From assembly GCA_963701645.1 (NCBI GenBank), contig OY969616.1:502463-566462 (forward strand): a stretch of DNA of 64,000 bases, read 5' to 3'. The DNA comes from an uncultured bacterium. GTDB taxonomy: Bacteria > Babelota > Babeliae > Babelales > Vermiphilaceae. The translations under genes and the position numbers were made by a program. Every line of letters begins with the position of its first letter. The first letter of the stretch is position 1. Under the pieces are notes generated by a model. The model did no database searches. It was not told the origin of the DNA and saw nothing but the letters and a program-made list of their open reading frames with translations. This document shows, piece after piece, positions 25,453 to 58,916 of the stretch.

Positions 25453-25541
25453 TAAAACTCGATAGTAAAATTTTATATCCATGGTACACTGATGTCCTGT
25501 TGAATAAAGAGATATCATTATTTGTACCATGGATTTTTTAT

Positions 25542-26252: not shown

Positions 26253-26253
26253 C

Positions 26254-30517: not shown

Positions 30518-30524
30518 AATTATC

Positions 30525-34013: not shown

Positions 34014-34015
34014 AA

Positions 34016-37414: not shown

Positions 37415-37421
37415 AATTATC

Positions 37422-40400
37422 CTACGATTCCAACGCTTTTTTTACAGCTTTTAAAATTGGTTCTTTCTTTTTTTCCAAAAGTTCCTTTTTTGTGCGCAGC
37501 GATTCAAGATCAAAATAAAGATCGGGATCTTTACTTATTGTTGGATTTTTTGCCTCAAGTTCTTCAACTCTTTTTGTATGTATCTTTATTTGCGCATCAA
37601 ATAAGCTTGATATGGGATTAAGAGATTCATATAGCTGCGAATTGGTTATTTGTGTTGCAATGATTCTTTGCATTTTTAACAACATTTTTTTATTTGGTTC
37701 CATGATACAAAATTTAAAAAATGAAGTGAGGCAACTGTTAATAAGAGGTGTAATTTGTGCATCAAGACTTTCTGCTTTGTTATAAAAGGAAAGCATAATA
37801 TCTATTATATCAGCGTAACAATTTTGGAAAGTTAAGGGATTTTCCTTTTTAGCTAATGCATTTGTACGTGTATTAGCTATATCACTTGAAAAATATTTTT
37901 CTACGCTAGTTAAAAATAATGTTTCTATGTAGGGAAAAAATAGAGCTTTTTGTTCTGTTATAATTGTTTTTATACTTGGAATAAGAATTTCGTGAAGGAA
38001 TTCTGATATGGAACTATCGATGAAATTTGTAGTGATGTAGTGTACATTAAATAATCGTTTTGCAACGTATTCTGCCATGAAATATAAAGGGGTTTCTGGG
38101 ATGATATTTTTGTCTATTAATTTTGATAAAAAGGTGCCTGCCCCTTCAAAATTCATGCGACCTTTTATGGATTTTGCTTGAATTTGTTTATACAGTAATG
38201 GAAATAAGAAAGAGGTATTATTACTACGCATGATGTCAGTTGCAGTTCTCCATAGGTTACGTTGAACCTCATTGCTAAAAACGGATTGTATTCTTTGTTC
38301 TTTGTCTTCTTCCGTAAAAAAGTCAGTTTTTGTGTGGTGTAGTACTTGCAAATAGTTTACTTTATTAGTGCGAGGAAAAAGTTCTCCTTCCAGTGCTAAT
38401 TTTAAACAAGGAATAAGTGAATCAGGTATTGTTTGCAATTCAGAACTTGTCAAACTTTCAATGATAATAGCTTGTTGTACGTCTATAGGTTGGCTATTAA
38501 GCCATGTAGTAACGGTATCAAGAATAGAAACAAAGTGAGAGTCGGTAGCAAACTGTTCCCAATGGTGGTTAACAATAAATTTTAATACATCTGGATAAAC
38601 GAGCCCTTTTAAAGTTTGCTTTTTCTTTGAATCTGGTGGGAAACAAGAAAGTAATTTTTCCATGAGCGTGAGTGAATGCTCGCTCAAAATGTGTTCTTTT
38701 TTTGCAAAAGCACTTATCATTTCTCCGATAAGATAGAGATTTGGTGAGACTATAAATGAAGCAAGCATTTTTTCTGATGTGATGTTTAAAAATTTGTTAG
38801 GTTCAAATTCATTGCGCTTGATTGATATAGAAAGAAATTGACTTTGTATTTCAGATTTACTGATATTACTTGATAAGGCGACAAATAAAAGATAAGCACT
38901 ATCCAAAACTGTTTTACTTAAGTTCAGACGGCTTCCAAATTTCTCTTTAGCATAAGGGTAGCATGTTGTAAGATTTCGTATCGAAATATCTGAGATAATA
39001 AAGGGAAGAAGATGATCTAACATTGGTTCATGTCGATCGAATGATGTATTGGTATTTAAAAATTCTATGCCATTATGTCTCGTAGAAAAAGAAAGTGTGA
39101 ATGTTATGGGTATTTTATTGATAATTGTTTTTATCGTTATAAACCAAGTTTTATGGATGTTGTTTCTATAAAACTCTTCCCATATTTTTTTGTCATTCCC
39201 TGTGTCAAGATTTCCTGAACCAGTACAGTCAAAAACAGTACATAATTCTTCAAAAGATGTTATGTGAGTACCAAAAAAATGATTCACCATAGCAATATAA
39301 CTGCTTGGATATGGAGCAAGTTCAAAGAGTGTATAATTATCATCAACAAGTTCATGGGTGCCAAAGTCTTCTGTATAGATTTTATCAGGAAGAGGATGAA
39401 GAACTGGATTAGCACCATTTTTTTTGGCTTCTTCAGAACCATTGTTGTTAATTTTTTGTAAATATTTTATTCCTGGTATGTTGGTAAAAATATCTGTTAA
39501 TGCTTGGGCCATATTTGGATTAGATGCAATGAAAGCACTGGTATATTTTTTAAAAAATGCTTGTAGAGGAGCAATATTTTTTTGCATCAAATCTTGATCA
39601 AATGGAACATGTTGTACGTGAAAAAATTCTCTGATTTTTTGTGGTATAGCATCTGCATCAAACAGTGCATTTTCAAAATTATATGCTCCTATTTTTGCCA
39701 TAATAATGCGGAAGAATGACATAAGAGTTGCTTCTGCGCAGCTACTAAAAGTAGTATTTTTAATAATGACATTGAGCCAAGGTAATTTGGGGGGCAATAA
39801 TGATTGTAGATTGTGAATAGCTTCATAGGCAATTTGTTCGAAATTGGTAATGATAAAAAGAAGGAGGTTTTCTTTATCTTCTCCTTCTGCTACTTTTTCT
39901 TCTACTTTTTTTGATACATTGAGTGTATGATCTAATTTTCCTTCAAAAAATTTTTCGCTTTTTTCTTGTAAAATTGAAGGATCAAATTGCTTGAAATACA
40001 GTATAAAATCATCTTTTGTTTTTACTTTTTCATACAGCAGAGCGAGTAAGATCATGTGTGTTGTATAAGAGGGATAAATTGGCTCATAGTTTGTTGGAAT
40101 GAATCCACATTCTTTGAGTGATTCGACAATCATTTTGCTTACTTTTGGAACAGCAAGCCGCAATGCTTTAGATTGCTTTTTACTCTTTTCTTCCTCTATA
40201 GCTGTTTTGAAGTCGCCAACAAGGCTGATAATTTTGTCTCTATAGAGTTCCTTTTCTGTATCCTGTCTTTCTTCAAATAATTGGCGTATGTTTTTGTCAG
40301 GTAATGCGCTTAATTTTTGCATACTATTTTTCCAATTTTTTGGTGTAAAATTAAAAAATTGTTTTGTTTTTTTATTTTGCTGCAGTTTTTTTATGTAAGG

Positions 40401-40991
40401 AATTTGGTCAAGCAATATGAGTTCTTTACGAATGGCCTCCATTTTTGGCTCAAAGACGCCCATAAGAATATCTTGGATTTCCTGTTCCAGCATGGGGCCT
40501 CTTGCTTTTTCTGGATTTTCTTCTATGAGCGTTTCTGTCCGATCTATAGCGGCAACTATTTTTCCGATAACTTCAGGTGTAAAGTAAGTGGCAGGATTGG
40601 TTTTTGTTGTTGTTGGACCGAATTGGCCAGGAAGACGATAGAAAAAATTTAAAATGCAGAGCATAGTATTGTCTGCTTTTATGATTTTTTCGACTACCCC
40701 ATTCGCATCAAGTTCCACCGTTGCATTGCCCCAGACATAATATTTTTCAAGAAGCCCTGATTCTACCCAGATAAAACCATGAAAAGGGGACAGATACTTT
40801 TTTTCTTCAATGACTGCATCATACAAACCCCGTAGATCCCGTTTATCTGCAATGCGGGACAAGAGTGGTGAGATAACGGTGATGATAACCAAAAGAAAAA
40901 AATATGATTTTCTCTTTCTTATGAGGCTCCACGAGGAAAGAATGGAGAAAAAAAAGTATGATATATTACTATATTTTTGTGTCATAGCCAT
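37422..40991 (-). CDS. Giant-paralog family member 4 (1189 aa), a mosaic of member 3-like and member 2-like tracts
   Basis: First gene of the operon. FSSCAEATLMSFFR (Cys codon 39738-39740) and GTHELVD (His codon 39354-39356). The N-terminal 29 aa are encoded partly by a REP-like repeat. Confidence 0.9.
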   Translation of the reverse strand: MAMTQKYSNISYFFFSILSSWSLIRKRKSYFFLLVIITVISPLLSRIADKRDLRGLYDAVIEEKKYLSPFHGFIWVESGLLEKYYVWGNATVELDANGVVEKIIKADNTMLCILNFFYRLPGQFGPTTTKTNPATYFTPEVIGKIVAAIDRTETLIEENPEKARGPMLEQEIQDILMGVFEPKMEAIRKELILLDQIPYIKKLQQNKKTKQFFNFTPKNWKNSMQKLSALPDKNIRQLFEERQDTEKELYRDKIISLVGDFKTAIEEEKSKKQSKALRLAVPKVSKMIVESLKECGFIPTNYEPIYPSYTTHMILLALLYEKVKTKDDFILYFKQFDPSILQEKSEKFFEGKLDHTLNVSKKVEEKVAEGEDKENLLLFIITNFEQIAYEAIHNLQSLLPPKLPWLNVIIKNTTFSSCAEATLMSFFRIIMAKIGAYNFENALFDADAIPQKIREFFHVQHVPFDQDLMQKNIAPLQAFFKKYTSAFIASNPNMAQALTDIFTNIPGIKYLQKINNNGSEEAKKNGANPVLHPLPDKIYTEDFGTHELVDDNYTLFELAPYPSSYIAMVNHFFGTHITSFEELCTVFDCTGSGNLDTGNDKKIWEEFYRNNIHKTWFITIKTIINKIPITFTLSFSTRHNGIEFLNTNTSFDRHEPMLDHLLPFIISDISIRNLTTCYPYAKEKFGSRLNLSKTVLDSAYLLFVALSSNISKSEIQSQFLSISIKRNEFEPNKFLNITSEKMLASFIVSPNLYLIGEMISAFAKKEHILSEHSLTLMEKLLSCFPPDSKKKQTLKGLVYPDVLKFIVNHHWEQFATDSHFVSILDTVTTWLNSQPIDVQQAIIIESLTSSELQTIPDSLIPCLKLALEGELFPRTNKVNYLQVLHHTKTDFFTEEDKEQRIQSVFSNEVQRNLWRTATDIMRSNNTSFLFPLLYKQIQAKSIKGRMNFEGAGTFLSKLIDKNIIPETPLYFMAEYVAKRLFNVHYITTNFIDSSISEFLHEILIPSIKTIITEQKALFFPYIETLFLTSVEKYFSSDIANTRTNALAKKENPLTFQNCYADIIDIMLSFYNKAESLDAQITPLINSCLTSFFKFCIMEPNKKMLLKMQRIIATQITNSQLYESLNPISSLFDAQIKIHTKRVEELEAKNPTISKDPDLYFDLESLRTKKELLEKKKEPILKAVKKALES
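38323..38782. repeat. Partner of 31405-31864
   Basis: Same comparison as above. Looser similarity continues to about 39048. Confidence 0.9.
39071..39326. repeat. Partner of 35575-35830
   Basis: Same comparison as above. Confidence 0.9.
40046..40790. repeat. Partner of 36532-37276
   Basis: Same comparison as above. Confidence 0.92.
40905..40960. repeat. REP/RPE-like hairpin repeat copy lying inside the annotated 5' coding end of member 4
   Basis: ATGATTTTCTCTTTCTTATGAGGCTCCACGAGGAAAGAATGGAG matches the unit at 481-530. Hairpin CTCCA..TGGAG at 40927-40947. Confidence 0.7.
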
Positions 40992-41198
40992 TCCCAGTTT
41001 TCAAATTGAATTTATAAGAAAAGTAACATACGGGGTTTGCAAAAGTAAAGGGTTTTATACTGGGTAAAAAACAGTGGGAGGCACGAAAGAGATTGTTTTT
41101 TTTTACATATAGAGTATCCTTAGTTTTCGGAAGTAATTATGCAGATTAAGAGATAAAAATAAGTAATTTTGTATTTTAATATTCAGGATGAGGATTCC

Positions 41199-41435
41199 AT
41201 GCCAGTACCAAAACGTAAACGCTCGCGCACGCGCCGTGATAAGCGGTTTGCCAATAAAGGGTTAATACCACAAACATTTTCCAACTGTACCCAGTGTAGC
41301 AAGCCATGTGTGCCCCACGTTGTGTGTCAGTCTTGTGGATATTACAAGGGTGTCCTTGTGATAAAAGAGCACGTAAAAAAAGCTAAAAAAGTTGCACAGA
41401 AAAAATCAGCAAAATCTGCATCAGCAGAAGAATAA
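41199..41435 (+). CDS. rpmF: 50S ribosomal protein L32
   Basis: MPVPKRKRSRTRRDKR N-terminus and a CxxC...CxxC zinc ribbon (CTQCSKP..CQSCGYYKG). Lys-rich tail. Start trimmed from TTG 41169. Confidence 0.9.
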   Translation: MPVPKRKRSRTRRDKRFANKGLIPQTFSNCTQCSKPCVPHVVCQSCGYYKGVLVIKEHVKKAKKVAQKKSAKSASAEE

Positions 41436-41443
41436 CATCTGCC

Positions 41444-42529
41444 ATGGCGTTACGAGCAAAAAATTGCATTATTGCTGTCGATGCTATGGGGGGGGACTAT
41501 GCTCCGCAAGCTGTTATTGAGGGAGCACTTGCTGCCGCAGCTGAAGGTATCCCTGTTGTTTTGTTTGGTGATGAAAAAGTTATAGAGCAGCTGCTTTTTG
41601 GTTGTGATCAGGAATGGAAAAAACTGCCGCTGGAAATAGTGCATTGTACCGATGTTATTGCGATGGATGAGGAGCCAAGTAAGGCGGTCCTCAGAAAAAA
41701 AGATGCATCTTTAATTAAAGCAATGCACAGTGTTGTCAATGGCAGGACTCATGCAGTTGTGTCGGCAGGAAATTCGGGAGCGGTTTTAGTTGCCAGTACC
41801 GTTATTCTTGGCAGAACAGCAGGCGTGCTTAGGCCGGCAATCGGAGGTTTTTTACCAACGCAAAAAGGATCGGTCTTTTGCATAGATTTGGGGGCAAATA
41901 CTGATTGCAAAACAGAATACTTAGAGCAGTTTGCCTTTATGGGGCATGCGTATGTTTCTGTTGTGCATGGCATGACATCCCCCCGCATTGGTTTATTGTC
42001 TAATGGACATGAGCCCTATAAGGGGTCTGGAATTGTCAAAGAAGCATATGGTCGTCTGACGCAATCGAGTTTGAATTTTGTTGGCAATATCGAGGCACGT
42101 GATATTTTCAATGACAAAACTGACGTGCTCGTGTGTGATGGATTTTCAGGAAATATTATGCTTAAAACTGCGCAAGCAACAGCACGGGTGATGATGGACT
42201 GGCTCAAACAGGAAGCAGCTACATCGTGGTGGTCAAAAGCGGCACTTGGTTTGAGTGCGCCGCTGTTGAAAAAATTAAAATCAAAAACTGATTATAGTCG
42301 TATTGGTGGAGCGTTATTGTTAGGGGTACAACATCCAGTTATCACCGCGCATGGCAGTTCTAATGCACAAGCGATTGCCCACGCAATTTCTTTTGCCCAT
42401 GCAGTGGTACAAAAACAGATTATTAGGCGTTTTAATGAGAAACTGGTAGAGTTGTTGCATAAACAGAAAACATCTTTTTCGACGATGTTGGAACGTAAAG
42501 AACGATCATTATTGTCATGGGCACAGTAA
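41444..42529 (+). CDS. plsX: Phosphate acyltransferase PlsX
   Basis: IAVDAMGGDYAP, VSAGNSGA and GFSGNIMLKT motifs. Sits in the canonical position after rpmF. Confidence 0.95.
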   Translation: MALRAKNCIIAVDAMGGDYAPQAVIEGALAAAAEGIPVVLFGDEKVIEQLLFGCDQEWKKLPLEIVHCTDVIAMDEEPSKAVLRKKDASLIKAMHSVVNGRTHAVVSAGNSGAVLVASTVILGRTAGVLRPAIGGFLPTQKGSVFCIDLGANTDCKTEYLEQFAFMGHAYVSVVHGMTSPRIGLLSNGHEPYKGSGIVKEAYGRLTQSSLNFVGNIEARDIFNDKTDVLVCDGFSGNIMLKTAQATARVMMDWLKQEAATSWWSKAALGLSAPLLKKLKSKTDYSRIGGALLLGVQHPVITAHGSSNAQAIAHAISFAHAVVQKQIIRRFNEKLVELLHKQKTSFSTMLERKERSLLSWAQ

Positions 42530-42543
42530 CTGAAAGGTTTGTA

Positions 42544-43242
42544 ATGAAAAAAAATCATGTGTTGTCAGGAATACAAGAGACAGTAGAAGTAACCCGCACT
42601 GAAATAAAAAAGTATGTTTCTTTTGCATATGCACGCGAAATTTTTGCGGGCATTGCAGTTGTGTGTGTGGGAATCATGTGTTGGTATGGATTTTCGTGGT
42701 ATAAAGTGCGACAAAATCAGCGGGCACATATTGGGTTAAGCTTTTGCATAGAGGCGTATCATAAGGCTCAGTTGGAAGAAGGTGCTGATTTTAGTTCGGC
42801 GATACAGCTGTTTCGTGATGGATATGCAATTCATGGATCAAGTTCATTGGCGCCATTTTTTCTCGTTTATGAGGCGGATATTCTTTTGCAGCAGGGCAAT
42901 CGCCATGATGCAATTCCTGTTTTGAAAAAAGCGGTTGAAACTTTAGGGAATTCTCCTCTTGCGTATTTGTATAAAACGAAACACGCGCTTGTTATGATGG
43001 ACAGCAATGAAACTGATATCAAGCAGCAAGGTCTTGATGCTCTTCTTGCCTTAGCGCGAGAGCCAAAAAATCAGTACAGCGATAATGCACTCTATTTCCT
43101 TGGGCGATATTATGCAGTGAATAATCAAAGAGATGAAGCGCGGATGATTTGGCAGGAGCTTGCGGAAATTTATGAAGTGAATGGTGCTGATGCATCACCA
43201 TGGGCTGAACGCGCGTGGGAAGCACTTCGCCTGATGGTATAA
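42544..43242 (+). CDS. Membrane-anchored TPR-like protein (YfgM-like architecture)
   Basis: One TM helix (IFAGIAVVCVGIMCWYGF) followed by helical repeat-like sequence (ALYFLGRYYAVNNQRDEARMIWQEL). Start set to ATG 42544. Confidence 0.6.
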   Translation: MKKNHVLSGIQETVEVTRTEIKKYVSFAYAREIFAGIAVVCVGIMCWYGFSWYKVRQNQRAHIGLSFCIEAYHKAQLEEGADFSSAIQLFRDGYAIHGSSSLAPFFLVYEADILLQQGNRHDAIPVLKKAVETLGNSPLAYLYKTKHALVMMDSNETDIKQQGLDALLALAREPKNQYSDNALYFLGRYYAVNNQRDEARMIWQELAEIYEVNGADASPWAERAWEALRLMV

Positions 43243-43272
43243 AAAACAGTTTTTGCATAAAGGACGTTTGCC

Positions 43273-44709
43273 ATGCACGACAATATTCAGGTCCGTGTTC
43301 GTTTTGCGCCATCGCCAACAGGATATTTACATATTGGTGGATTGCGCACTGCATTTTTCAACTGGCTTTTTGCACGGCATACTAAGGGAGTAATCTTACT
43401 CCGCATAGAAGATACTGACCTTGAACGTTCGACAGCTGAATACCAAAAATCAATTCTTTTATCGTTGCACTGGGCACATTTGGAACCTGATGAGCCGATG
43501 GTTATCCAATCAGAACGATTTGATGAGCATGCAGCAGTAATTAAAAAATTACTTGATGAACAAAAAGTATATCGCTGCTATTGTACCGCAAAAGAAGAAG
43601 TTGTTCGGTATGAACAAGAAACTGGCGGAGATTTTTTTGTCCGCTATGATGGGCGATGTCGGAATTATAGACCAACGGCTGCCGATGAAGGAAAGCCGTA
43701 TGTTGTACGCTTTAAAATTCCCACGACCATATCCCATATTTCTTTCAATGATCTTATTCGTGGTCCGGTAATCTTTGAATTGGATCAGCTTGATGATTTT
43801 ATTATTGCGCGCTCTGATGGCCGACCAATGTACAATTTTGTTGTTGTTGTTGATGATGCGTGGATGCGTATTACGCACGTTATTCGCGGAGAAGATCATA
43901 TTTCAAATACACCAAAACAGATTCTCCTATACCACGCATGCGGATACACAGTTCCCCATTTTGCGCATGTTCCCCTTATTTTGGGACCAAGTGGTGACAG
44001 GTTGAGCAAGCGTGATGGAGCAACATCGGTTGAAGAGTACCGGAAAATGGGTTTTTTGCCGGAGGCGCTGCTGACGTATTTAGTCCGTCTTGGCTGGTCC
44101 CATGGTGATCAAGAAATTTTTAGTACTGGTGAACTTATTGCCTATTTTTCGCTTGAAGGCATTGGCAAAAAAGGATCTATTTTTGATCTTGAAAAATTAC
44201 AATGGGTCAACAGTATTTATATAAAGGCAGCGACGCCCGCGGATTTATATACACGTATGCAAGAAGATGTTATGCCATCACTGGCACAAAAGCTTACTTT
44301 ATGGAGCACAGAAAAAATATATCATGCCATTACATTATACCAAGATCGGGTGCATACCCTTGCGGAATTAGCGCATGCAGTTGTTGAGTTGCATGATGGT
44401 CCACAGGCATATATTCCCCTTGAACAAATGTTGTGGTCTGCTGATCCAGCAATTGGCCAATTAGTCAATAATGTTCGTCTTTATTTGGCAACGGAACAGG
44501 AGCTGCACCATGAACAGTTACAGGAAGCGGTAACGGAGTTGGTCAAAAAAGCAGGGAAGAAAATTGGAGCAGTTTCACAACCGCTGCGCATGGCTTTGAT
44601 AGGAAAAACATCAGGACCGGGCGTTTTTATGCTTATGAGTTTGTTAGGCTCACAAGAATGTATACGGCGCATTGACGCGCTCGATGCATATATGCAAACA
44701 AGGGGCTGA
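43273..44709 (+). CDS. gltX: Glutamyl-tRNA synthetase
   Basis: RFAPSPTGYLHIGGLRTA (HIGH) and DRLSKRDG (KMSKS-like). 478 aa. Confidence 0.97.
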   Translation: MHDNIQVRVRFAPSPTGYLHIGGLRTAFFNWLFARHTKGVILLRIEDTDLERSTAEYQKSILLSLHWAHLEPDEPMVIQSERFDEHAAVIKKLLDEQKVYRCYCTAKEEVVRYEQETGGDFFVRYDGRCRNYRPTAADEGKPYVVRFKIPTTISHISFNDLIRGPVIFELDQLDDFIIARSDGRPMYNFVVVVDDAWMRITHVIRGEDHISNTPKQILLYHACGYTVPHFAHVPLILGPSGDRLSKRDGATSVEEYRKMGFLPEALLTYLVRLGWSHGDQEIFSTGELIAYFSLEGIGKKGSIFDLEKLQWVNSIYIKAATPADLYTRMQEDVMPSLAQKLTLWSTEKIYHAITLYQDRVHTLAELAHAVVELHDGPQAYIPLEQMLWSADPAIGQLVNNVRLYLATEQELHHEQLQEAVTELVKKAGKKIGAVSQPLRMALIGKTSGPGVFMLMSLLGSQECIRRIDALDAYMQTRG

Positions 44710-44736
44710 AAAAAATAAAAAAAGAAGAGGTAGTTC

Positions 44737-45663
44737 ATGAAAGTAGTCTTTATTTTTCCTGGCTGCGGGAGTCAATTTGTTGGCATGACAAAAGAGTTGT
44801 ATGATACACACCGTATCATGCAGGAGTATTTTGAAGAAGCGTCAAACTGTTTAGATATTAATTTTGTCAAATTATGTTTTGCCTCATCTGATGCTGAACT
44901 TGCGAAAGTTTCTCATGCAACCACATCACTTTTTTTGGTATCTTCTGCTGTTGCAGCACTTTTGATGCAAGAAGAAATTACTCCTGCATTGCTTATTGGT
45001 TTTGATGATGGTCAGTATAGTGCATTGCACACCGCGTCAGCTATCAGTTTTCCCGATGGATTATATTTACTTGCAAAATATAGTGCCTTTTACGAAGATT
45101 TTTTGATCAATTTTAACGGTGGAGCTGCCATTGTGAAGGGATTGCCAACCCAAGTGTTAGAAGAGCTATGCCTGAAAGCAAGCATGGGTGAACGACAACT
45201 ATTTATTACCACGTATTTGACTGTTATTGAGCATATTGTCGCGGGCAGTCGGGTTGCTCTTGATCATTTATATGATCTGGCCAATTTGTACAGCACCGTA
45301 TCTCTTGATTATTATCCCGTGCAGGCAGGATTACATTCTCCGCTGATGCAATCGGTTGCAGACCAGCTTCGCGTGTATCTGGAAAAAATTGATTTTAAAG
45401 ATGTCAAAATTCCTTTTTTAAGTGGTCTGGATGGACACATGGTGAGCCACGGGGGAGAGGTAAAAAAACGAGTTATGGAACAAATTATTAGCCCACTTCA
45501 TTATACGAGCTTGCTTGATATGCTTGAGCAGTATGACATTATTGTTGAAATTGCCAGCAATACACCGCTCAAACACCTTATTCAAAGTCGTTATCCCAAT
45601 AAATCATTTATTACCGTGAAAAAACAGAGTGATCTAGAGGCATTGCAGGAATTGGTAAGGTAG
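44737..45663 (+). CDS. fabD: Malonyl-CoA:ACP transacylase homolog with a degenerate active site
   Basis: FIFPGCGSQFVGM (compare FPGQGSQ) and LHSPLM are conserved. GHSLGE is replaced by GFDDGQ (44998-45015). Confidence 0.8.
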   Translation: MKVVFIFPGCGSQFVGMTKELYDTHRIMQEYFEEASNCLDINFVKLCFASSDAELAKVSHATTSLFLVSSAVAALLMQEEITPALLIGFDDGQYSALHTASAISFPDGLYLLAKYSAFYEDFLINFNGGAAIVKGLPTQVLEELCLKASMGERQLFITTYLTVIEHIVAGSRVALDHLYDLANLYSTVSLDYYPVQAGLHSPLMQSVADQLRVYLEKIDFKDVKIPFLSGLDGHMVSHGGEVKKRVMEQIISPLHYTSLLDMLEQYDIIVEIASNTPLKHLIQSRYPNKSFITVKKQSDLEALQELVR

Positions 45664-45711
45664 TGTAGAGTAAAATACGCATATTAACGCTACATAACTG
45701 GAGATACCGCA

Positions 45712-45966
45712 GTGGCAGATTTTGATAAACATGACACGTATAATAAAGTAATTACTATTATTGCAGAAAAATTGGCAATTGATCCTGCATCAATTACGCC
45801 GCGCTCAACATTGCAAGAGCTTGGTGCTGACTCACTTGATATGGTAGAAATTATTATGAAAATCGAAGAGCTTTTTTCTATAGAAATTAATGATGAAGAA
45901 ATAGAAAAATGTCAGAACTTACAAGATGTTGTTGATTATGTCAATACCTTGCGCATGCAGAAATAA
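45712..45966 (+). CDS. acpP: Acyl carrier protein
   Basis: GTG start with a GGAG RBS. LGADSLDMVEIIM phosphopantetheine-attachment motif. 84 aa. Confidence 0.92.
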   Translation: MADFDKHDTYNKVITIIAEKLAIDPASITPRSTLQELGADSLDMVEIIMKIEELFSIEINDEEIEKCQNLQDVVDYVNTLRMQK

Positions 45967-45968
45967 TC

Positions 45969-47540
45969 TCAAAAATTAGCACCAAGCCGAACCCAGACCG
46001 CCCATTGTGATTCAGCAGTGCGGAAAAAAACGGTGGTGTCCCGTTCATTAATACCTTCAAATTCTATTTCTGCACCGACGCCAATGAGGGGGAGGAATAG
46101 CTCCGTTTCATGCTCACAGGTGTACGCATAGCCGATATAGCCGAAAAATTTGTTGGTCAGAAGAAGTTGTGTTTTGGCAGAATGACGATCAATATTATTT
46201 GGGGTGATAAAGACGGGAGAAGGGCTATCGACAACGAGCATCTGATCAGCAAATTCGTTGCCCAAAATAGTTGCAGTGCTTTGAGTTGTGGGTGCCAGAA
46301 AACCGGTGACCGGATCACTTATTTGTTGGATGCCTTTGAGACCAAGAGTGTTGTTGGTAATATTATTTTCCAATGTTACTTTTTCTTTACTTCTGATCCA
46401 TCCTTCATAGCCGAAATCAAACACAAAATTGTTGTACGTGTACGCGAGCATGAGCAAGCCATCAGCCTGAATATTATTGTGTACTTTACATTCTAGGGTG
46501 GTGCTATTAATAACTGGTGCTGCAGTTCCGGTGAATGAGCCGTTACTGAAAAGTTTTGCGGGAATATATCTGCTGGCAAAGCCATTTGGCTGGAGATCGA
46601 ATGAGCGGTACTGTTTTGAGGCAAGAAGAGTTGATAACGTGAGGTCAAGGTACACATTAAGTTGTTGCTGCCCATCTTTTTCCCAGACAATAGTGTGACC
46701 GGAAAAACCAATGCCGATTTCCGCATTGCGTCGATTACCCAGGAGTGGCTCGAACAGGAAAATACCATGAGGTCGTGTTCCTGTCGGCAATGCTGCGCGA
46801 AGACTGACCCCTGCATGACACAAATCATGGAGAAAAAAGTTCCATCCAAATTCAAGCCGCATGTCTGCAGCGCCAGCCGTTGACCGTTTTTGTATTTTGC
46901 CCCGTTGCAGTCCACCTATGGCACCATAAGAAACGTTGCCTTTCATTGCATCAATGAATGATGCAAACGGCGCGGCGAGTGGTGTTGCATTTGTGGTGAC
47001 ATAGCCGGGAGGAAACGGTGTTGCAGTGCCTGGAGCAAAAATATCTTCCGTCAAACGGAGATCCCATTGTGTCCACCCCGCAGGTAATGTTACCCGTCCA
47101 TAAATACCGCGGTAAATACACGGCATATCTATGTAAAAATCAAATTCAACAAGTGCAGTTCTGATGATCGGGTCAAGGAGTACAAAACTTGCAAATTCTG
47201 GCGAAAGACCAAAATAGTCAGCAAGGAGATCTTGTGGTCCCCGTTGCGGTACTTGGCTGCCAGAAATAGACAGATGAGCGGAGCCAAAAAGGGCTGATGC
47301 GATACGCTGTGGACGAACTGATTGTCCGTACACCGGTGTGACAAAAAAGATGCCCTGTGTTTTTTGTGTTGGCTGATAAATAAAGGGGTGAATGCCGGCA
47401 TAGCGGCGCGCTTCATTAAGACCTTGCGGGCGCGGAATAAAAACGGAAATGCCGCGCAGGGTATCATCAAAATTGCCCCCGTGCAAAAAGGCTGTTGCCA
47501 ATGTACATGCAATAAGAATACTATAGAATGCATAGATCAT
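45969..47540 (-). CDS. Porin-like outer-membrane beta-barrel paralog (523 aa)
   Basis: Signal peptide. Family motifs LLADYFGLSPEF and LPTGTRPHGIFLFEP. C-terminal beta-signal WAVWVRLGANF. Confidence 0.85.
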   Translation of the reverse strand: MIYAFYSILIACTLATAFLHGGNFDDTLRGISVFIPRPQGLNEARRYAGIHPFIYQPTQKTQGIFFVTPVYGQSVRPQRIASALFGSAHLSISGSQVPQRGPQDLLADYFGLSPEFASFVLLDPIIRTALVEFDFYIDMPCIYRGIYGRVTLPAGWTQWDLRLTEDIFAPGTATPFPPGYVTTNATPLAAPFASFIDAMKGNVSYGAIGGLQRGKIQKRSTAGAADMRLEFGWNFFLHDLCHAGVSLRAALPTGTRPHGIFLFEPLLGNRRNAEIGIGFSGHTIVWEKDGQQQLNVYLDLTLSTLLASKQYRSFDLQPNGFASRYIPAKLFSNGSFTGTAAPVINSTTLECKVHNNIQADGLLMLAYTYNNFVFDFGYEGWIRSKEKVTLENNITNNTLGLKGIQQISDPVTGFLAPTTQSTATILGNEFADQMLVVDSPSPVFITPNNIDRHSAKTQLLLTNKFFGYIGYAYTCEHETELFLPLIGVGAEIEFEGINERDTTVFFRTAESQWAVWVRLGANF

Positions 47541-47625
47541 AGCAGTACCCCGGCATAAAGTTCATCTTTTTTATCGCTTTTACTATAGGAAATTTGTGAC
47601 CGTGGAGGCAAGCATTTCTCCTTTT

Positions 47626-49446
47626 TTATCGTAAAATTCCACCCTTTAAAGAAATTGACCAAAAAGAGAAAGCAGTGTTTACGCTTGTCGTTCGTTCTTC
47701 TTTTTCTGTCGGCCCTGGAGCTCGTCCAAAATCAACTTGGGCTCCGAATCCAAAAAACCAGGTAATCGTATCTCGTTCCCAGGTGCGATGGAGATGGGTG
47801 CCTATTTTTTGAACAAGCCCGCGCGTTTCTCCGCTCATGATGTCAAGGTCAGCCAACGAAAGAGGAATTGGTGGCAGTGACGTTTGAATAATGTTGTCAG
47901 GAGACGTGTCATCAATTGATGCTACTAAATATTGGCCTGCCGTGGTGGCGGCGGGGAGCGGGTTATCTATTTTTGGATTGCGGCGAGCTTGTGCAATAAT
48001 GGCATCGGGAGTTTTTGTGCCAATGCCGGTGCGAGGAAAATTAGTACCGGTGTAAATGGTTGCTTGGCTTTCAGTTGCTGATAAGGGGACGGGTGTGTCG
48101 ATGGGCAGAGACCCTGGCGGTCTATTTTGTCCGACAAAACCAAAAAGTTGCGCATCTCCTTTGAATGCCCAGCCTTGGGGAAATACTGACGGATTGAGAA
48201 TGTCGATATGTTCTCCGGTACGCATCCAGACATTGTAAAAAAAAGTGAAAAATGTGCGTGGGCTTTTGTACATGCCCATGAGGGTAAAATCTACCATAAC
48301 GGGAGCCCAGACATGAATATTAAATGTGGTAAAGTTTGCAAGGGGAGAAACTTCTCCATTATATATGGTGCTGATGGGAATGAGCGTTGTGCCTTGCTGT
48401 GCAGCAAGAGGAGACTGATCCATTGTTGTCAGCCGTTCGACAAGCTGATATCGACTGAGCGGTTTTTTCATATCAAACGTTCGCGTTTGCGTGGTGCCAA
48501 AGACATGGCTTATGGTCAGGTTGCTCCAGAAGGTGACTGATTGAATATTGTCATTATCATGCCACGCAAGAGCGCGACCTGAACAGCCTATGCCAAGTGT
48601 TGCCTGATGACCATTATTGGTAATCGGTTCAAATAAAAAAACTGCTTCAGGTCTGTTGTCAGTTGGCACTGTTCCCTGAATATATGGTGCGACATGATAC
48701 CATTTTGATTTCCATGGCACAACGCCGAGCGTTCCCTGGAGTGCCGCGAGCGCTGTTTTATAGAGTGGCTTGGGACTCATTTTGGCATAGGCGAGCGGAT
48801 GAAAATTGAGGTTGTCAATTGTTGGAGTAGCACCTGCGGCAAACGAAATAAAATTGGGGAGTAGTTGAGAGCGGGGAACTGCTTGTGGTGTAAAATATCC
48901 CGCGTCGTAACCATTTTTTCCCGGCACCGTGATAATTTCTTCAAGCTCCATGCTCCATTTTGTGTGTACGACCGGTGCGCTGACAAGAATATACAAATGT
49001 TTGAAACGTCTGTCATTACTATAATAAAAATAGGGACGAAAAATAAAGGTCGATGCATGGGGAGTCAAACGAACGTAACTTGTATAATCAGTCGGCAGGC
49101 AAAAATAGTCAGCAAGCCAGTCATGCTGCGGAACTCGTGTTGGTGCGCGGCTGCCACTGATCGTAATTGTTTTGCGACAATTTGTTGCATCATCGCCAAA
49201 CATGCTTTGATTGATGCGCTCAGGACGAAAGGTCAGGGTAAATTCGATGGCACCATCAAGAATATATCGTTGTTGTTTGTCGTTAATAGTGCGCACAAGT
49301 ATGTCGTGACGACCGATAATGTCATCAACGTTATAAGCAGTGACGGGACGAGGGTTGACAAATGTTGCAACGCGATCCTGAAGAGGGGCGTGCATTAAAA
49401 ATGGGACGCACAGGACAAAAAGGTGAATCAAATAGTAGAGTATCAT
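47626..49446 (-). CDS. Porin-like outer-membrane beta-barrel paralog (~606 aa)
   Basis: The ORF track starts at GTG 49464. ATG 49444-49446 lies 1 nt after the upstream stop (TAAcATG coupling). Motifs WLADYFCLPTDY and PTDNRPEAVFLFEP. Confidence 0.85.
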   Translation of the reverse strand: MILYYLIHLFVLCVPFLMHAPLQDRVATFVNPRPVTAYNVDDIIGRHDILVRTINDKQQRYILDGAIEFTLTFRPERINQSMFGDDATNCRKTITISGSRAPTRVPQHDWLADYFCLPTDYTSYVRLTPHASTFIFRPYFYYSNDRRFKHLYILVSAPVVHTKWSMELEEIITVPGKNGYDAGYFTPQAVPRSQLLPNFISFAAGATPTIDNLNFHPLAYAKMSPKPLYKTALAALQGTLGVVPWKSKWYHVAPYIQGTVPTDNRPEAVFLFEPITNNGHQATLGIGCSGRALAWHDNDNIQSVTFWSNLTISHVFGTTQTRTFDMKKPLSRYQLVERLTTMDQSPLAAQQGTTLIPISTIYNGEVSPLANFTTFNIHVWAPVMVDFTLMGMYKSPRTFFTFFYNVWMRTGEHIDILNPSVFPQGWAFKGDAQLFGFVGQNRPPGSLPIDTPVPLSATESQATIYTGTNFPRTGIGTKTPDAIIAQARRNPKIDNPLPAATTAGQYLVASIDDTSPDNIIQTSLPPIPLSLADLDIMSGETRGLVQKIGTHLHRTWERDTITWFFGFGAQVDFGRAPGPTEKEERTTSVNTAFSFWSISLKGGILR

Positions 49447-49447
49447 G

Positions 49448-51253
49448 TTAAAACGCAAGTCCACCTTTTATCCATACTGTCCACTGAGATACTGACATTC
49501 GGTAAGGTGACTGGCTCTGCTCGTGATTCCACTCACTTTGTGCACCAATGCCGATGTATGGCGTCCATTCTTTGCAGGGAGAACAACTATATCCAGCATA
49601 GACAAAGAGTGTTGATGACATGCCGCGGAGCTGTGCACCGGTTACATCAAGATCACTGACGGTCAAAAATATTGGATTGATCGATGTGTTAATACGATTG
49701 TCAGCAGTATCTGGTAGTCCAGGAGCATACTCAAGGGGAAGTAATTGCGGAGGAGAAGGAGGTGTTGGAGCGGGACTGAATGCTTCTTGTGGATTATCTA
49801 CATTGGGGTTTGTTTGTGCAGTGGCAATAACATCAGGGTCAGTAGTTCCTGTTGCAGGAAAGTTGGTACCGGCATGAATCGTAGCCTGATTTTCAGTAGC
49901 GGATAATGCTACGCTCGTTGCCAGATCGGGATAGTAGCCAAAGACTTGTGCGTCACCTTTAATTGCCCAGGTGGTATTATTGATTAAAACATTTTCACGA
50001 TCGCGGGCAAGAGAAATTGCTTCTTCAGTTTGTCCCCAGAAATTGTATCCAATATCAAATGAAAAGTTGCCCGTAGTGTATGACAATAAGAGCAGTAAAT
50101 CAACTTGTGCTGTTGCATGAACATTGCAATGAACTGCGGTTAAATTAGCAAGAGGGGCAAAGACAAAAGAAAATTGTCCTGTTGAAGGAATACCCTCAGC
50201 ATTGGTAACCGTTGAAGGAAGTTCCAGCTTTTCTGCCAACATAAATCTGGTCAATGGGCCTGTTTTGAGATCAAAGACGCGTATTTGGCGGGTGGTAAAA
50301 AGATGCGTGAGGCTGAGATCGCCATAGAAGTATAAGGCACTATTATTTTCATCATTATGCCAAATGCGATAGTTGCCGGTAAATCCGCCACCAAATTCCC
50401 AGTGATGGCTGTTGCCAATGACGGGAGTGAAAAGATGTACGCCATCGGGTCGTGTGCCAACCGGTGATATGGCAAGAACGCGAACGCCAAATAAATAATC
50501 TTCATAATAAGGAGTGTCCCAGCCAAAACCAAACTGAATGTCGGCAATTTTTGTGTGATGCATGCTGCCTTCTTTCATGCGAGAAAATTTTAGTGATTGC
50601 AGCGTAATGTCGGGAACAGATGTAATGGTAGTATTGCCGCTGGCATAGGAAGAAAATGAGTATAATAATTTTTTCCGCGCAACGCTGCCGACGGCCAATG
50701 CGCCCGGTGCATAATTATTCACCCCAGGACTGGTGACATTTTCTTGAATATGAAGATTTGATGTGCAGCGAACAAGCGGGGCGAATGCCCAGAGATATAA
50801 TCCGCGGAGCCAGGGATTTAAATCAAGATACCAGAGAATATCGAAAATAACTGATTCAGTTCTTGGTTTGAGCGAGACGGTGCTTGAAAAGTCAGTCGGA
50901 AGATAAAAATAGTCTGCAAGAAGATCTTGCGGTTGTCGATTTGTTGTTTGGCTGCCGGTAACGCGGAAAGTATTGTCAGTGGTCAGCGCCATGCCAAATA
51001 ATTTTTTTGCCAAAAGTTTATCTCTAAAGCAGTGGCTATAGCCAAGATTAAATGCCAATGTCCCCTGGAGAATATCAGGGTTGGGATGTGTGTGGACAAT
51101 CCATGGATGGATATACCGCGTCATACCTGCTTGTTGTCGCGCAGCATTATGTCCCTGTGATCTTGTTGCAAAATACGGCAATACCGATGGCTCTGCAGAG
51201 TACATGGTGAACTGAAAAAGACTGAGAGCACATATGATGTATACTGTTTTCAT
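49448..51253 (-). CDS. Porin-like outer-membrane beta-barrel paralog (~601 aa)
   Basis: ATG 51251-51253 with an AGGAG RBS (MKTVYIICALSL). Motifs LLADYFYLPTDF and PVGTRPDGVHLFTP. C-terminal WTVWIKGGLAF. Confidence 0.85.
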   Translation of the reverse strand: MKTVYIICALSLFQFTMYSAEPSVLPYFATRSQGHNAARQQAGMTRYIHPWIVHTHPNPDILQGTLAFNLGYSHCFRDKLLAKKLFGMALTTDNTFRVTGSQTTNRQPQDLLADYFYLPTDFSSTVSLKPRTESVIFDILWYLDLNPWLRGLYLWAFAPLVRCTSNLHIQENVTSPGVNNYAPGALAVGSVARKKLLYSFSSYASGNTTITSVPDITLQSLKFSRMKEGSMHHTKIADIQFGFGWDTPYYEDYLFGVRVLAISPVGTRPDGVHLFTPVIGNSHHWEFGGGFTGNYRIWHNDENNSALYFYGDLSLTHLFTTRQIRVFDLKTGPLTRFMLAEKLELPSTVTNAEGIPSTGQFSFVFAPLANLTAVHCNVHATAQVDLLLLLSYTTGNFSFDIGYNFWGQTEEAISLARDRENVLINNTTWAIKGDAQVFGYYPDLATSVALSATENQATIHAGTNFPATGTTDPDVIATAQTNPNVDNPQEAFSPAPTPPSPPQLLPLEYAPGLPDTADNRINTSINPIFLTVSDLDVTGAQLRGMSSTLFVYAGYSCSPCKEWTPYIGIGAQSEWNHEQSQSPYRMSVSQWTVWIKGGLAF

Positions 51254-51332
51254 AGACACTCCTTTTGCGCAGCATAGCATTCTTGTTCTTGTTATACCAC
51301 AGAAAAGAGATTTTGTGCCAACAATTTTCTAC

Positions 51333-51363
51333 AAAAAAAAGCCCGAGACATCTCGGGCTTTTT
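51333..51363 (-). terminator. Rho-independent terminator (bidirectional-looking) after 51429-53447
   Basis: GCCCGAGA/TCTCGGGC stem at 51341-51358, flanked by an A8 run (51333-51340) and a T5 run (51359-51363). Confidence 0.8.
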
Positions 51364-51428
51364 AAGTACCTATTTTGTTGCTTTATAAAGGTATGTATAT
51401 GTTCTTACATTACCCTAACAAGCACCAA

Positions 51429-58842: not shown

Positions 58843-58916
58843 TGGGGCGTGGCCAAGCGGTAAGGCAACGGGTTTTGGTCCCGTGACCGGAGGTTCGAAT
58901 CCTTCCGCCCCAGCCA
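58843..58916 (+). tRNA. tRNA-Gln (anticodon UUG)
   Basis: Manual cloverleaf. Acceptor TGGGGCG/CGCCCCA. D-arm GCCAAGCGGTAAGGC. Anticodon stem ACGGG/CCCGT with loop TTTTGGT. T-arm GGAGGTTCGAATCCTTC. Discriminator G plus an encoded CCA. Confidence 0.92.

What the first reader, a model, noticed from the sequence alone, without database searches (positions are those of the whole stretch)
44998..45015. FabD homolog lacks the catalytic serine and the malonyl-binding arginine
Seen: where E. coli FabD has A-G-H-S92-L-G-E-Y-S-A-L, this protein has I-G-F-D-D-G-Q-Y-S-A-L (GGT TTT GAT GAT GGT CAG at 44998-45015). The nucleophile Ser is Asp and the preceding His is Phe. With an ungapped alignment, Arg117 (VEMRGKFM) corresponds to Tyr (LAKYSAFY), and Gln11 of FPGQGSQ is Cys. 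His201 (xHSPLM) is retained. The E. coli sequence is recalled from memory. Inference: the protein is either an inactive scaffold or pseudoenzyme, or an acyltransferase with changed chemistry or substrate. It remains an intact 308-aa ORF next to acpP, which argues for selection.
Basis: partly seen in the sequence, partly recalled or inferred. Interest (0 to 1): 0.65.

Follow-up and report, generated by a model that had tools for sequence, protein, structure and literature searches.

The report
Catalytically dead FabD kept beside ACP
A parasitic bacterium of the phylum Dependentiae, which reportedly cannot make fatty acids, keeps under strong selection a copy of the fatty-acid enzyme FabD that has lost every residue needed for its reaction, so the gene databases call "ACP S-malonyltransferase" is almost certainly something else.

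Summary
ORF 44737-45663 (+, 308 aa) has the full FabD fold (AF2 pLDDT 91; TM 0.92 to E. coli FabD). It carries Cys/Thr/Phe/Asp/Asp/Tyr/Tyr at E. coli Gln11/Gln63/His91/Ser92/Leu93/Arg117/Met121. Only His201 is kept.

This is not a one-off. At least 215 relatives, named Babeliales or Dependentiae and including cultured Babela massiliensis, lack Ser92 (Asn/Gly/Asp), Arg117 (Tyr/Phe/Leu), Gln11 and Gln63 (Tyr). They also lack three further invariant residues (Asn160, Asn162, Gln166) and the basic ACP/CoA-docking residues. All of these are invariant or nearly so in 76 canonical FabDs.

The gene is the true FabD ortholog. A sister Dependentiae lineage has the canonical residues in the same rpmF-plsX-TPR-gltX-fabD-acpP slot.

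dN/dS is 0.06-0.08, the same range as gltX and plsX. gltX lies upstream in 28/28 loci. acpP lies downstream in 22/22 loci that extend far enough. No FASII gene is nearby.

Best reading: a pseudo-transacylase kept for a non-catalytic role, probably in ACP-linked handling of host lipid. A new chemistry in the remodelled Tyr-rich pocket is not excluded. I found no paper reporting the residue loss.

The parts
44737..45663 (+). FabD-derived pseudo-transacylase (fabD*), 308 aa
   Evidence: PF00698 at 59.9 bits. TIGR00128 fabD equivalog at 144.6 bits, below the 260.9 cutoff. AF2 pLDDT 91, and Foldseek TM 0.92 with rmsd 1.9 A to FabD structures. dN/dS 0.06-0.08.
44998..45015 (+). Former nucleophile elbow: G88-F89-D90-D91-G92-Q93 in place of G-H-S92-L-G-E
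   Evidence: Canonical FabDs have Ser 76/76 here. The family has Asn 130, Gly 45, Asp 26, Cys 5, Ala 4 and Thr 2 of 215.
44764..44766 (+). Cys10 at the Gln11 (oxyanion-hole loop) position
   Evidence: Gln is 76/76 in canonical FabDs. The family has Tyr 193/215; Cys occurs only in the window's subclade.
44920..44922 (+). Thr62 at the Gln63 pocket position
   Evidence: Gln is 76/76 in canonical FabDs and Tyr is 193/215 in the family.
45079..45093 (+). Y115-S-A-F-Y119: Tyr at Arg117 (malonyl carboxylate binder) and Tyr at Met121
   Evidence: Arg and Met are each 76/76 in canonical FabDs. The family has Tyr/Phe/Leu at 117 and Tyr 188/215 at 121.
45331..45336 (+). L199-H200: the His201 equivalent is retained and the preceding Phe/Ser200 is Leu
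   Evidence: His is 180/215 in the family (Tyr 22) and Leu is 184/215.
45712..45966 (+). acpP, acyl carrier protein, 84 aa, GTG start, with Ser41 in the GADSLD phosphopantetheine site (45832-45834)
   Evidence: PF00550 at 63.3 bits; TIGR00517 at 75.7, above the 70.45 cutoff. It lies directly downstream of fabD* in 22/22 family loci whose contig extends far enough.
43273..44709 (+). gltX (glutamate-tRNA ligase), directly upstream, 27-nt gap
   Evidence: TIGR00464 at 496 bits, above the 290 cutoff. It is upstream of fabD* in 28/28 family loci.
42517..43242 (+). TPR_21 (YfgM-like) protein; its start overlaps the plsX stop by 13 nt
   Evidence: Conserved in 22/28 loci.
41444..42529 (+). plsX, phosphate:acyl-ACP acyltransferase
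   Evidence: TIGR00182 at 347 bits, above the 243 cutoff. It is present in the cluster in 12/28 loci and absent from the cluster in L012 and L014-L016.
41169..41435 (+). rpmF (ribosomal protein L32), first gene of the conserved cluster
   Evidence: ORF. Pfam PF01783 is recorded on the orthologous genes in L002-L006.

Best explanation
The ORF is the Dependentiae ortholog of FabD (malonyl-CoA:ACP transacylase). It kept the two-subdomain FabD fold but lost the transacylase machinery. The losses are the Ser92 nucleophile, the Arg117 malonyl-carboxylate clamp, the Gln11 and Leu93 side chains, pocket residues Gln63 and Met121, three further invariant residues (Asn160, Asn162, Gln166), and the basic patch that docks ACP and CoA.

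In most members the former active-site gorge is relined with bulky Tyr, Phe and Leu. The elbow position holds Asn, Gly or Asp, residues that tolerate the strained elbow backbone without being nucleophiles.

The protein is therefore a pseudoenzyme, not a malonyltransferase. It is nevertheless needed: it evolves as slowly as gltX and plsX and always sits between gltX and acpP. I infer that it acts by binding, as a scaffold, adaptor or regulator, in the ACP-dependent use of host-derived acyl chains. The other components reported for the phylum are ACP, AcpS, PlsC, sometimes PlsX, and an AMP-ligase.

The binding surface would be a lineage-specific conserved patch (R26, Q29, N42, K45, K114, K217, P287) that arose before catalysis was lost.

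Shown: residue loss, fold, orthology, selection and synteny. Inferred: lack of activity, a plugged pocket, and the link to ACP and lipid salvage.
For: (1) Residues. Searches compare 76 canonical FabDs with 215 family members. Ten positions are 100% invariant in the canonical set (11, 63, 92, 93, 117, 121, 160, 162, 166, 201). Nine of them are replaced family-wide. Position 92 varies (Asn 130, Gly 45, Asp 26, Cys 5, Ala 4, Thr 2), and His201 is Tyr, Asn or Phe in about 15% of members. Basic residues fall from 96% to 2% at Lys189, from 87% to 10% at Lys279 and from 99% to 30% at Arg287.

(2) Fold. pLDDT is 91. TM is 0.92 and rmsd 1.9 A to 1MLA, 2G1H and 6U0J.

(3) Orthology. P0203 has GHSLG, Arg117 and His201 and sits in the same rpmF-plsX-TPR-gltX-fabD-acpP slot. 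In the NJ tree the Ser-less clade is monophyletic and is sister to P0203/P0227.

(4) Selection. dN/dS is 0.063-0.084 for fabD*, 0.078-0.110 for gltX and 0.049-0.063 for plsX.

(5) Context. gltX is upstream in 28/28 loci and acpP downstream in 22/22 usable loci. FabH, FabK, FabG, FabF, FabZ, AccC and AccD are found in 0/28 loci. No FASII domain occurs in the window ORFs that were scanned.

(6) Literature. TM6 genomes are reported to lack fatty-acid biosynthesis genes (PMC4776705). In Babela massiliensis FabD is the only fatty-acid-synthesis step present and its role is called unclear (PMC4378268). The Babela sequence itself is Ser-less, with GHGLG. Babela has AcpS, PlsC and a COG0318 ligase that could load ACP.

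(7) The protein fails the NCBIfam FabD equivalog cutoff (144.6 against 260.9), whereas plsX, gltX and acpP pass theirs.
Against: The replacement pocket residues are themselves highly conserved: Tyr11 90%, Tyr63 90%, Tyr121 87%, Leu200 86%, Gly199 93%, His201 84%. That fits a new ligand-binding or catalytic site as well as a plugged core.

Loss of the canonical ACP-docking basics, together with a more acidic protein (net charge about -13), argues against ACP binding in the known mode. The proposed ACP link therefore rests on gene adjacency only.

Absence of FASII from the window's own 1.48-Mb genome was not tested directly. Only 64 kb was examined, and the rest comes from literature on other members of the phylum.

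I could not obtain model coordinates, so pocket occlusion is an inference from side-chain sizes. There is no biochemical evidence.
Confidence: 0.6

Rival explanations
1. The protein is still an acyl-transfer enzyme with altered chemistry. The hydrophobic, Arg-less pocket would bind a non-carboxylated acyl thioester derived from the host. His201 would act as general base for direct attack by the ACP thiol without a covalent acyl-enzyme. This would give the parasite a route to load ACP.
For: His201 is retained in 84% of members and in the window. The new pocket residues are strongly conserved and hydrophobic or aromatic. From memory, unchecked here: Arg117 is replaced in PKS loading ATs that accept monocarboxylic acyl units. 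acpP is invariably adjacent. The organism needs some source of acyl-ACP, because ACP, AcpS and PlsC are retained in Babela.
Against: As far as I recall, every characterised member of the fold uses the elbow Ser, including loading ATs and acyl hydrolases. In this family that position drifts among Asn, Gly, Asp, Cys, Ala and Thr. His201 is Tyr, Asn or Phe in about 15% of members. Asn160, Asn162, Gln166, Arg190 and Arg287 and the ACP-docking Lys189 and Lys279 are lost. A COG0318 AMP-ligase that could serve as acyl-ACP synthetase exists in Babela and TM6SC1, so this protein is not required for loading.
Confidence: 0.22
2. The fold has been co-opted for a job unrelated to lipids. One example would be an assembly or chaperone factor for the translation apparatus, as human MCAT moonlights in mitoribosomal small-subunit assembly. 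The acpP adjacency would then be only a relic of the ancestral fab cluster.
For: [quoted passage not shown] The most invariant neighbour is gltX (28/28), and rpmF heads the cluster. plsX can be lost from the cluster while fabD* stays. The lineage-specific conserved surface residues predate catalytic loss, as expected if a second function came first.
Against: The protein is acidic, with pI about 5 and net charge about -13, which is unfavourable for rRNA binding. The rpmF-plsX-fab linkage is a widespread bacterial arrangement and not specific evidence. acpP is retained next to the gene in every usable locus. There is no direct evidence for any partner.
Confidence: 0.13
3. The ORF is a decaying relic (young pseudogene) of FabD, or a sequencing or assembly artefact, with no function.
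For: The catalytic residues are missing. The literature reports no FASII pathway in the phylum.
Against: dN/dS is 0.06-0.08, equal to the essential neighbours. Intact ORFs of about 310 aa occur in more than 200 diverged sequences at 36-69% identity. Identical motifs occur in independent contigs. The predicted fold is confident.
Confidence: 0.01

Closest known systems
FabD / MCAT, malonyl-CoA:ACP transacylase (E. coli FabD, PDB 1MLA, 2G2Z, 6U0J; TIGR00128)
   Same: It has the same two-subdomain fold (TM 0.92, rmsd 1.9 A). It descends from FabD as an ortholog, shown by the same syntenic slot as a canonical-residue Dependentiae FabD. It lies beside acpP in the rpmF-plsX-...-acpP cluster. The His201 equivalent and the G-x-x-x-G elbow glycines are kept.
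   Different: It has no Ser92, Arg117, Gln11, Gln63, Leu93, Met121, Asn160, Asn162 or Gln166, and no Lys189, Lys279 or Arg287. Its score is below the equivalog cutoff. No fabH, fabG or fabF is nearby. The literature reports that the host phylum lacks FASII.
The 'orphan FabD' of Babela massiliensis and JCVI TM6SC1 (Pagnier et al. 2015, PMC4378268)
   Same: It is the same gene family and the same gltX-fabD-acpP neighbourhood. The Babela protein shows FPGYGNQ / GHGLGEYSA / KKLSDFY / ALHNPL, so it is also Ser-less and Arg-less.
   Different: That paper annotated it as an active (acyl-carrier-protein) S-malonyltransferase and only remarked that its function is unclear. It did not report the loss of catalytic residues. 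The window protein belongs to a divergent subclade, with Cys10, Thr62, Phe89 and Asp90-Asp91 instead of Tyr, Tyr, Tyr and Asn/Gly.
Human mitochondrial MCAT acting as mitoribosome small-subunit assembly factor (PDB 8csp; PMC9892005)
   Same: It is a FabD-fold protein with a documented non-catalytic structural role. That sets a precedent for a second function which could outlive catalysis.
   Different: Human MCAT keeps its catalytic residues and its transacylase activity. No ribosome link is shown here, and the Dependentiae protein is acidic.
Pseudoenzymes of serine-hydrolase-type families (for example iRhom pseudoproteases, and C. difficile CspA/CspC pseudoproteases, PMC7200643)
   Same: It is a homolog of an active Ser-dependent enzyme. 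The nucleophile is lost but the fold is kept, and it is conserved under purifying selection.
   Different: The fold and biology are different. Those cases have experimentally defined regulatory roles and this one has none yet.

Membership tests
FabD (ACP S-malonyltransferase, EC 2.3.1.39) | Alpha/beta-hydrolase-like large subdomain plus ferredoxin-like small subdomain | tested here: met
   AF2 pLDDT 91 and pTM 0.89. Foldseek TM 0.90-0.93 to more than 20 FabD structures.
FabD (ACP S-malonyltransferase, EC 2.3.1.39) | Nucleophilic Ser in the G-H-S-x-G elbow (E. coli Ser92) | tested here: not met
   Asp90 in the window. The family has Asn, Gly, Asp, Cys, Ala or Thr. Canonical FabDs have Ser 76/76.
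FabD (ACP S-malonyltransferase, EC 2.3.1.39) | Arg117 binding the malonyl carboxylate | tested here: not met
   Tyr115 in the window. The family has Tyr, Phe or Leu. Canonical FabDs have Arg 76/76.
FabD (ACP S-malonyltransferase, EC 2.3.1.39) | His201 general base | tested here: met
   His200 in the window. His is 180/215 in the family.
FabD (ACP S-malonyltransferase, EC 2.3.1.39) | Gln11 and Leu93 oxyanion-hole loop, and pocket residues Gln63, Met121, Asn160, Asn162 and Gln166 | tested here: not met
   All are 76/76 in canonical FabDs. The window has Cys, Asp, Thr, Tyr, Thr, Leu and Glu. The oxyanion hole uses backbone amides, so its geometry alone is inconclusive.
FabD (ACP S-malonyltransferase, EC 2.3.1.39) | Basic ACP/CoA-docking residues (Lys189, Arg190, Lys279, Lys286, Arg287; defined in bioRxiv 10.1101/2020.05.15.098798) | tested here: not met
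   Basic fraction, canonical against family: position 189, 0.96 against 0.02; position 279, 0.87 against 0.10; position 287, 0.99 against 0.30. The window has Val, Ser, Thr, Gln and Ser. The alignment around 189-192 is gap-sensitive.
FabD (ACP S-malonyltransferase, EC 2.3.1.39) | Score at or above the curated equivalog cutoff (TIGR00128) | tested here: not met
   144.6 bits against a cutoff of 260.9. P0072 scores 192.6, and even the canonical-residue P0203 scores 224.6.
FabD (ACP S-malonyltransferase, EC 2.3.1.39) | Malonyl-CoA:ACP transacylase activity | not testable with these tools
   Needs a recombinant assay or fabD(Ts) complementation.
FabD (ACP S-malonyltransferase, EC 2.3.1.39) | Operates with a FASII pathway (FabH/F/G/Z/I, ACC) in the same genome | tested here: inconclusive
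   None of these genes lies within 10 kb in 28 family loci. None of the 38 window ORFs of at least 150 aa that were scanned carries a FASII domain; 33 of those 38 are outside the cluster. The literature says the phylum lacks them. The rest of this 1.48-Mb genome could not be read.
Pseudoenzyme (catalytically dead homolog under selection) | Clear homology and orthology to an active enzyme family | tested here: met
Pseudoenzyme (catalytically dead homolog under selection) | Loss of residues essential for catalysis | tested here: met
Pseudoenzyme (catalytically dead homolog under selection) | Purifying selection and long-term retention | tested here: met
   dN/dS 0.06-0.08. About 95 clusters at 50% identity across the phylum.
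Pseudoenzyme (catalytically dead homolog under selection) | Demonstrated absence of the ancestral activity | not testable with these tools
   Needs biochemistry.

The most novel reading that the evidence does not exclude
The conserved constellation Tyr11/Tyr63/Tyr91/Tyr-Phe117/Tyr121/Leu200/His201 is not a plug. It is a new functional site, either a ligand sensor or a catalytic centre with Ser-independent chemistry acting on ACP-bound or host-derived lipid. If so, Dependentiae would have evolved a previously unknown activity on the FabD scaffold that is central to how these obligate parasites build membranes from host lipids. The window's subclade (Cys10/Thr62/Phe89/Asp90/Asp91) would be a further functional variant.
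Probability: 0.2. Interest if true: 0.8.

Novelty: new variant of a known kind. Interest (0 to 1): 0.6.

Why it matters
First, it corrects a systematic misannotation. Databases name these proteins "ACP S-malonyltransferase" (names), and metabolic reconstructions of Dependentiae count them as a FASII step.

Second, it reframes a puzzle stated in the Babela massiliensis genome paper, namely why an organism without fatty-acid synthesis keeps FabD. The protein is no longer FabD in function.

Third, it offers a clean natural experiment in pseudoenzyme evolution. There is a single loss event inside a phylum, a sister lineage keeps the catalytic residues in the same genomic slot, and a lineage-specific conserved surface predates the loss. 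That pattern suggests a second function arose first and catalysis was then dispensed with.

Fourth, the always-linked ACP and this protein are candidate entry points for learning how a large, poorly known phylum of intracellular parasites turns host lipid into its own membrane. Babela is culturable in amoebae, so the question can be tested.

Tried and rejected
(a) I looked for an alternative Ser/Arg pair produced by a gapped alignment or a register shift. HMMER, MAFFT and the structural superposition all agree. Ser95 of G-Q-Y-S is the non-catalytic Ser97 of canonical FabDs and is Ala in most family members.

(b) Sequencing artefact or young pseudogene: rejected by independent contigs and by dN/dS.

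(c) Paralog rather than ortholog: rejected by shared synteny with the canonical-residue P0203 and by the tree. Babela has a single COG0331 gene.

(d) RNA-binding role by analogy with human MCAT. The protein is acidic, so I kept this only as a low-probability rival.

Only 5 and about 14 family loci were returned. That was enough for synteny statistics but not for a taxonomic census.

(f) I could not read the rest of the window's genome or of GCA_018656485.1. Absence of FASII in the former, and its presence or absence in the latter, remains untested.

(g) AF2 coordinates are not exposed, so pocket volume and surface clustering of the conserved patch could not be computed.

(h) Literature searches for a Ser-less FabD, or for FabD in Dependentiae, found nothing beyond the Babela remark.

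(i) The promoter and terminator scan of 40900-46300 was no better than shuffled sequence. The operon structure is therefore inferred only from short same-strand gaps and conserved gene order.
Full report
OBSERVATION. ORF 44737..45663 (+, ATG, 308 aa) is intact. The hexacodon GGT TTT GAT GAT GGT CAG lies exactly at 44998-45015 and encodes G88-F89-D90-D91-G92-Q93. Pfam assigns the whole protein to Acyl_transf_1 at 59.9 bits. phmmer against the PDB returns FabD/MCAT structures first, at E values of 4e-26 to 1e-20. Those alignments are ungapped through the motifs. 'liGFDDGQYSAL' lies on 'vaGLSLGEYSAL', and 'llaKYsafy' lies on 'lvaKRGaym'. The E. coli FabD sequence I used as ruler is identical to PDB 1MLA over 309 residues. 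The equivalences are therefore Gln11 to Cys10, His91 to Phe89, Ser92 to Asp90, Leu93 to Asp91, Arg117 to Tyr115 and His201 to His200.

FOLD. An AlphaFold2 model built on a 53-sequence family alignment has pLDDT 91 and pTM 0.89. It keeps the strand-turn-helix elbow at residues 85-99. Foldseek against the PDB gives FabDs only at the top. TM is 0.90-0.93 and rmsd 1.9-2.3 A at 22-25% identity, and the hits include the E. coli FabD-AcpP complex 6U0J. No structural register shift could supply another Ser/Arg pair.

NOT A ONE-OFF. A search of 5.8 billion proteins finds 952 relatives. The best 120 are 43-69% identical, and where they are named they are Candidatus Babeliales or Dependentiae. A profile search of 1.84 billion cluster representatives adds about 95 single-domain clusters at 50% identity.

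I compared 215 family sequences with 76 canonical FabDs taken from many phyla (loci; comparison). Ten positions are invariant (76/76) in the canonical set: Gln11, Gln63, Ser92, Leu93, Arg117, Met121, Asn160, Asn162, Gln166 and His201.

The family has the following at those and related positions:
- Position 11: Tyr 193.
- Position 63: Tyr 193.
- Position 91: Tyr or Phe.
- Position 92: Asn 130, Gly 45, Asp 26, Cys 5, Ala 4, Thr 2.
- Position 93: variable.
- Position 117: Tyr 126, Phe 48, Leu 28.
- Position 121: Tyr 188.
- Position 160: Ile, Val or Leu.
- Position 162: variable.
- Position 166: Asp or Glu.
- Position 200: Leu 184, where canonical FabDs have Phe.
- Position 201: His 180, Tyr 22.

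The basic residues that dock ACP and CoA in E. coli FabD are defined in bioRxiv 10.1101/2020.05.15.098798. Their basic fraction drops from 0.96 to 0.02 at Lys189, from 0.87 to 0.10 at Lys279 and from 0.99 to 0.30 at Arg287. Aromatic content rises from 6.1% to 9.4%, and net charge falls from about -8 to about -13.

The window protein fails the NCBIfam FabD equivalog cutoff, at 144.6 against 260.9. Its neighbours plsX (347 against 243), gltX (496 against 290) and acpP (75.7 against 70.45) pass theirs.

ORTHOLOGY AND TIMING OF THE LOSS. Distant family members share the order rpmF-plsX-TPR-gltX-fabD*-acpP. Across 28 family loci, gltX is immediately upstream in 28/28. acpP is immediately downstream in 22/22 loci that have more than 250 nt of downstream sequence. 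plsX is missing from the cluster in several loci, for example L012 and L014-L016. No FabH, FabK, FabG, FabF, FabZ, AccC or AccD homolog occurs within 10 kb (the queries were verified by Pfam).

P0203 carries FPGQGSQ, GHSLGEYSA, Arg117 and His201. It sits in the same slot (rpmF-plsX-TPR-gltX-fabD-x-acpP) in GCA_018656485.1. In a neighbour-joining tree the Ser-less sequences form one clade. Its sister is P0203/P0227, followed by P0263, and all of them nest within canonical FabDs (no support values were computed).

The Ser-less protein is therefore the vertical descendant of a real FabD, and the active site was lost once, inside the phylum.

Many family signature residues are already present in the canonical-residue Dependentiae FabDs: R26, Q29, C38, N42, K45, C47, Y110, K114, Y214, P287 and D299. 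In contrast, positions 11, 63, 91, 92, 117, 121, 199 and 200 changed only in the Ser-less clade. The remodelling is concentrated on the substrate pocket, and a lineage-specific conserved surface predates it.

SELECTION. I used two 95%-identical relatives from independent metagenomes (L005, L006) and the Nei-Gojobori method. dN/dS is 0.063-0.084 for fabD*, with dS of 0.20-0.29. For comparison it is 0.078-0.110 for gltX, 0.049-0.063 for plsX and 0.12-0.15 for the TPR gene. The motifs are identical in all three sequences. The gene is functional.

BIOLOGICAL CONTEXT. Thirty-eight window ORFs of at least 150 aa were scanned against Pfam. Thirty-three of those 38 lie outside the cluster. The three other giant paralogs at 30525-40991, the three other OMP-like paralogs at 47626-53447, and the truncated ORF at 63547-63999 were not scanned. 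None of the scanned ORFs carries a FASII or ACC domain.

[quoted passage not shown] They also report no evidence of lipid biosynthesis in Chromulinavorax (PMC6561590).

For cultured Babela massiliensis, FabD is listed as the only fatty-acid-biosynthesis step present, and the authors write that its function 'remains unclear' (PMC4378268). The Babela protein printed in their supplement reads FPGYGNQ / NAYPS / GHGLGEYSA / KKLSDFY / ALHNPL. It is a member of the Ser-less family, with Gly at the nucleophile position.

Their COG table shows that Babela and TM6SC1 each have one FabD, AcpP, AcpS, PlsC and one COG0318 AMP-ligase. They have no PlsX, PlsY, DegV/FakB or Fak kinase. A plausible acyl-ACP source, an Aas-like ligase, therefore exists without invoking FabD*.

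INTERPRETATION. The data favour a pseudoenzyme.

First, the former nucleophile position is not held to one residue. It drifts among Asn, Gly and Asp. From general structural knowledge, these are the residues that best tolerate the strained elbow backbone.

Second, His201 is itself dispensable in about 15% of members.

Third, three further invariant residues (Asn160, Asn162, Gln166) and the ACP-docking residues are gone.

Fourth, the small malonyl pocket has gained five or six bulkier aromatic or aliphatic side chains, which suggests that it is filled. This last point is an inference, because I could not inspect coordinates.

What the protein does instead is not shown. Invariant linkage to acpP, and the retention of ACP, AcpS, PlsC and sometimes PlsX, point to a binding or scaffolding role in ACP-dependent use of host acyl chains. 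It may act through the conserved lineage-specific surface. I give this 0.6.

The main rival, at 0.22, is Ser-independent acyl transfer or another new activity in the conserved Tyr-rich pocket. A lipid-unrelated moonlighting role, with human MCAT in mitoribosome assembly as precedent (PMC9892005), gets 0.13. Decay or artefact is excluded.

THE WINDOW'S OWN VARIANT. The window and its closest relatives (L005, L006, P0002) form a subclade. They carry Cys10, Thr62 and Phe89 where most of the family has Tyr, and Asp90 (Asn in P0002) followed by Asp91. Two pocket tyrosines are thus replaced by small residues, and two acidic residues sit on the elbow. This arrangement is conserved within the subclade. 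Its meaning is unknown.

NOVELTY. The gene is known only as an annotated 'FabD', and one paper flags it as puzzling. I found no report that it lacks the catalytic apparatus. It is a new, phylum-wide, dead variant of a very well-known enzyme, with a clear evolutionary polarity and a culturable model organism. I score interest at 0.6.

Noticed in passing
window 45969-53447 (-): Four tandem paralogous ORFs of 523, 612, 610 and 672 aa, 26-33% identical to one another. The two scanned (523 and 672 aa) have no Pfam match. They lie directly downstream of acpP on the opposite strand. The array is conserved in relatives (L003: 524, 602, 597 aa; L005: 523, 589, 601, 675 aa). They look like a family of outer-membrane or surface proteins.
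   Followed up: partly
window 28001-40991 (-): Four tandem giant paralogs of 838, 1162, 1132 and 1189 aa, 39-62% identical. The two scanned (838 and 1189 aa) have no Pfam match. They sit in the lowest-GC part of the window (0.32-0.35 against about 0.42). They may be an expanded effector or surface family.
   Followed up: partly
window 11788-17659 (+): Three paralogous ORFs without Pfam matches: 198 aa, 656 aa and 717 aa (34% identity between the two large ones). The pair at 5540-7431 (297 and 320 aa) is also paralogous at 30%.
   Followed up: no
L012, L014, L015, L016 (also L093, L097): In several Dependentiae lineages plsX is missing from between rpmF and the TPR gene, while gltX-fabD*-acpP stays intact. 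Babela's COG table also shows no PlsX or PlsY. The dead FabD is therefore retained independently of PlsX.
   Followed up: partly
L009/L010 (GCA_018656485.1), 8001-9077: A Dependentiae-type genome keeps a FabD with all canonical catalytic residues (P0203, 358 aa, with an N-terminal extension of about 30 aa) in the same syntenic slot. A 156-aa ORF on the opposite strand lies between it and acpP. Whether that genome still has FASII is unknown.
   Followed up: partly
window 22842-28012 (+): A ZnuA / ABC ATPase / two ABC-3 permease metal-uptake operon has a 559-aa WD40/beta-propeller-like protein (23773-25452) inserted between znuA and the ATPase gene.
   Followed up: no
window 1-64000: GC skew is positive in every 4-kb window, and the cumulative skew rises monotonically. 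The whole window therefore lies on one replichore, with no origin or terminus inside it. The only RNA gene found is tRNA-Gln(UUG) at 58843-58916.
   Followed up: no
P0002 (HXW85979.1), L012, L014, L015: Several public records that carry this Dependentiae-type cluster are labelled 'Candidatus Bathyarchaeia archaeon' or 'uncultured Pseudomonadota'. These are probably mis-binned or mislabelled MAG contigs.
   Followed up: no
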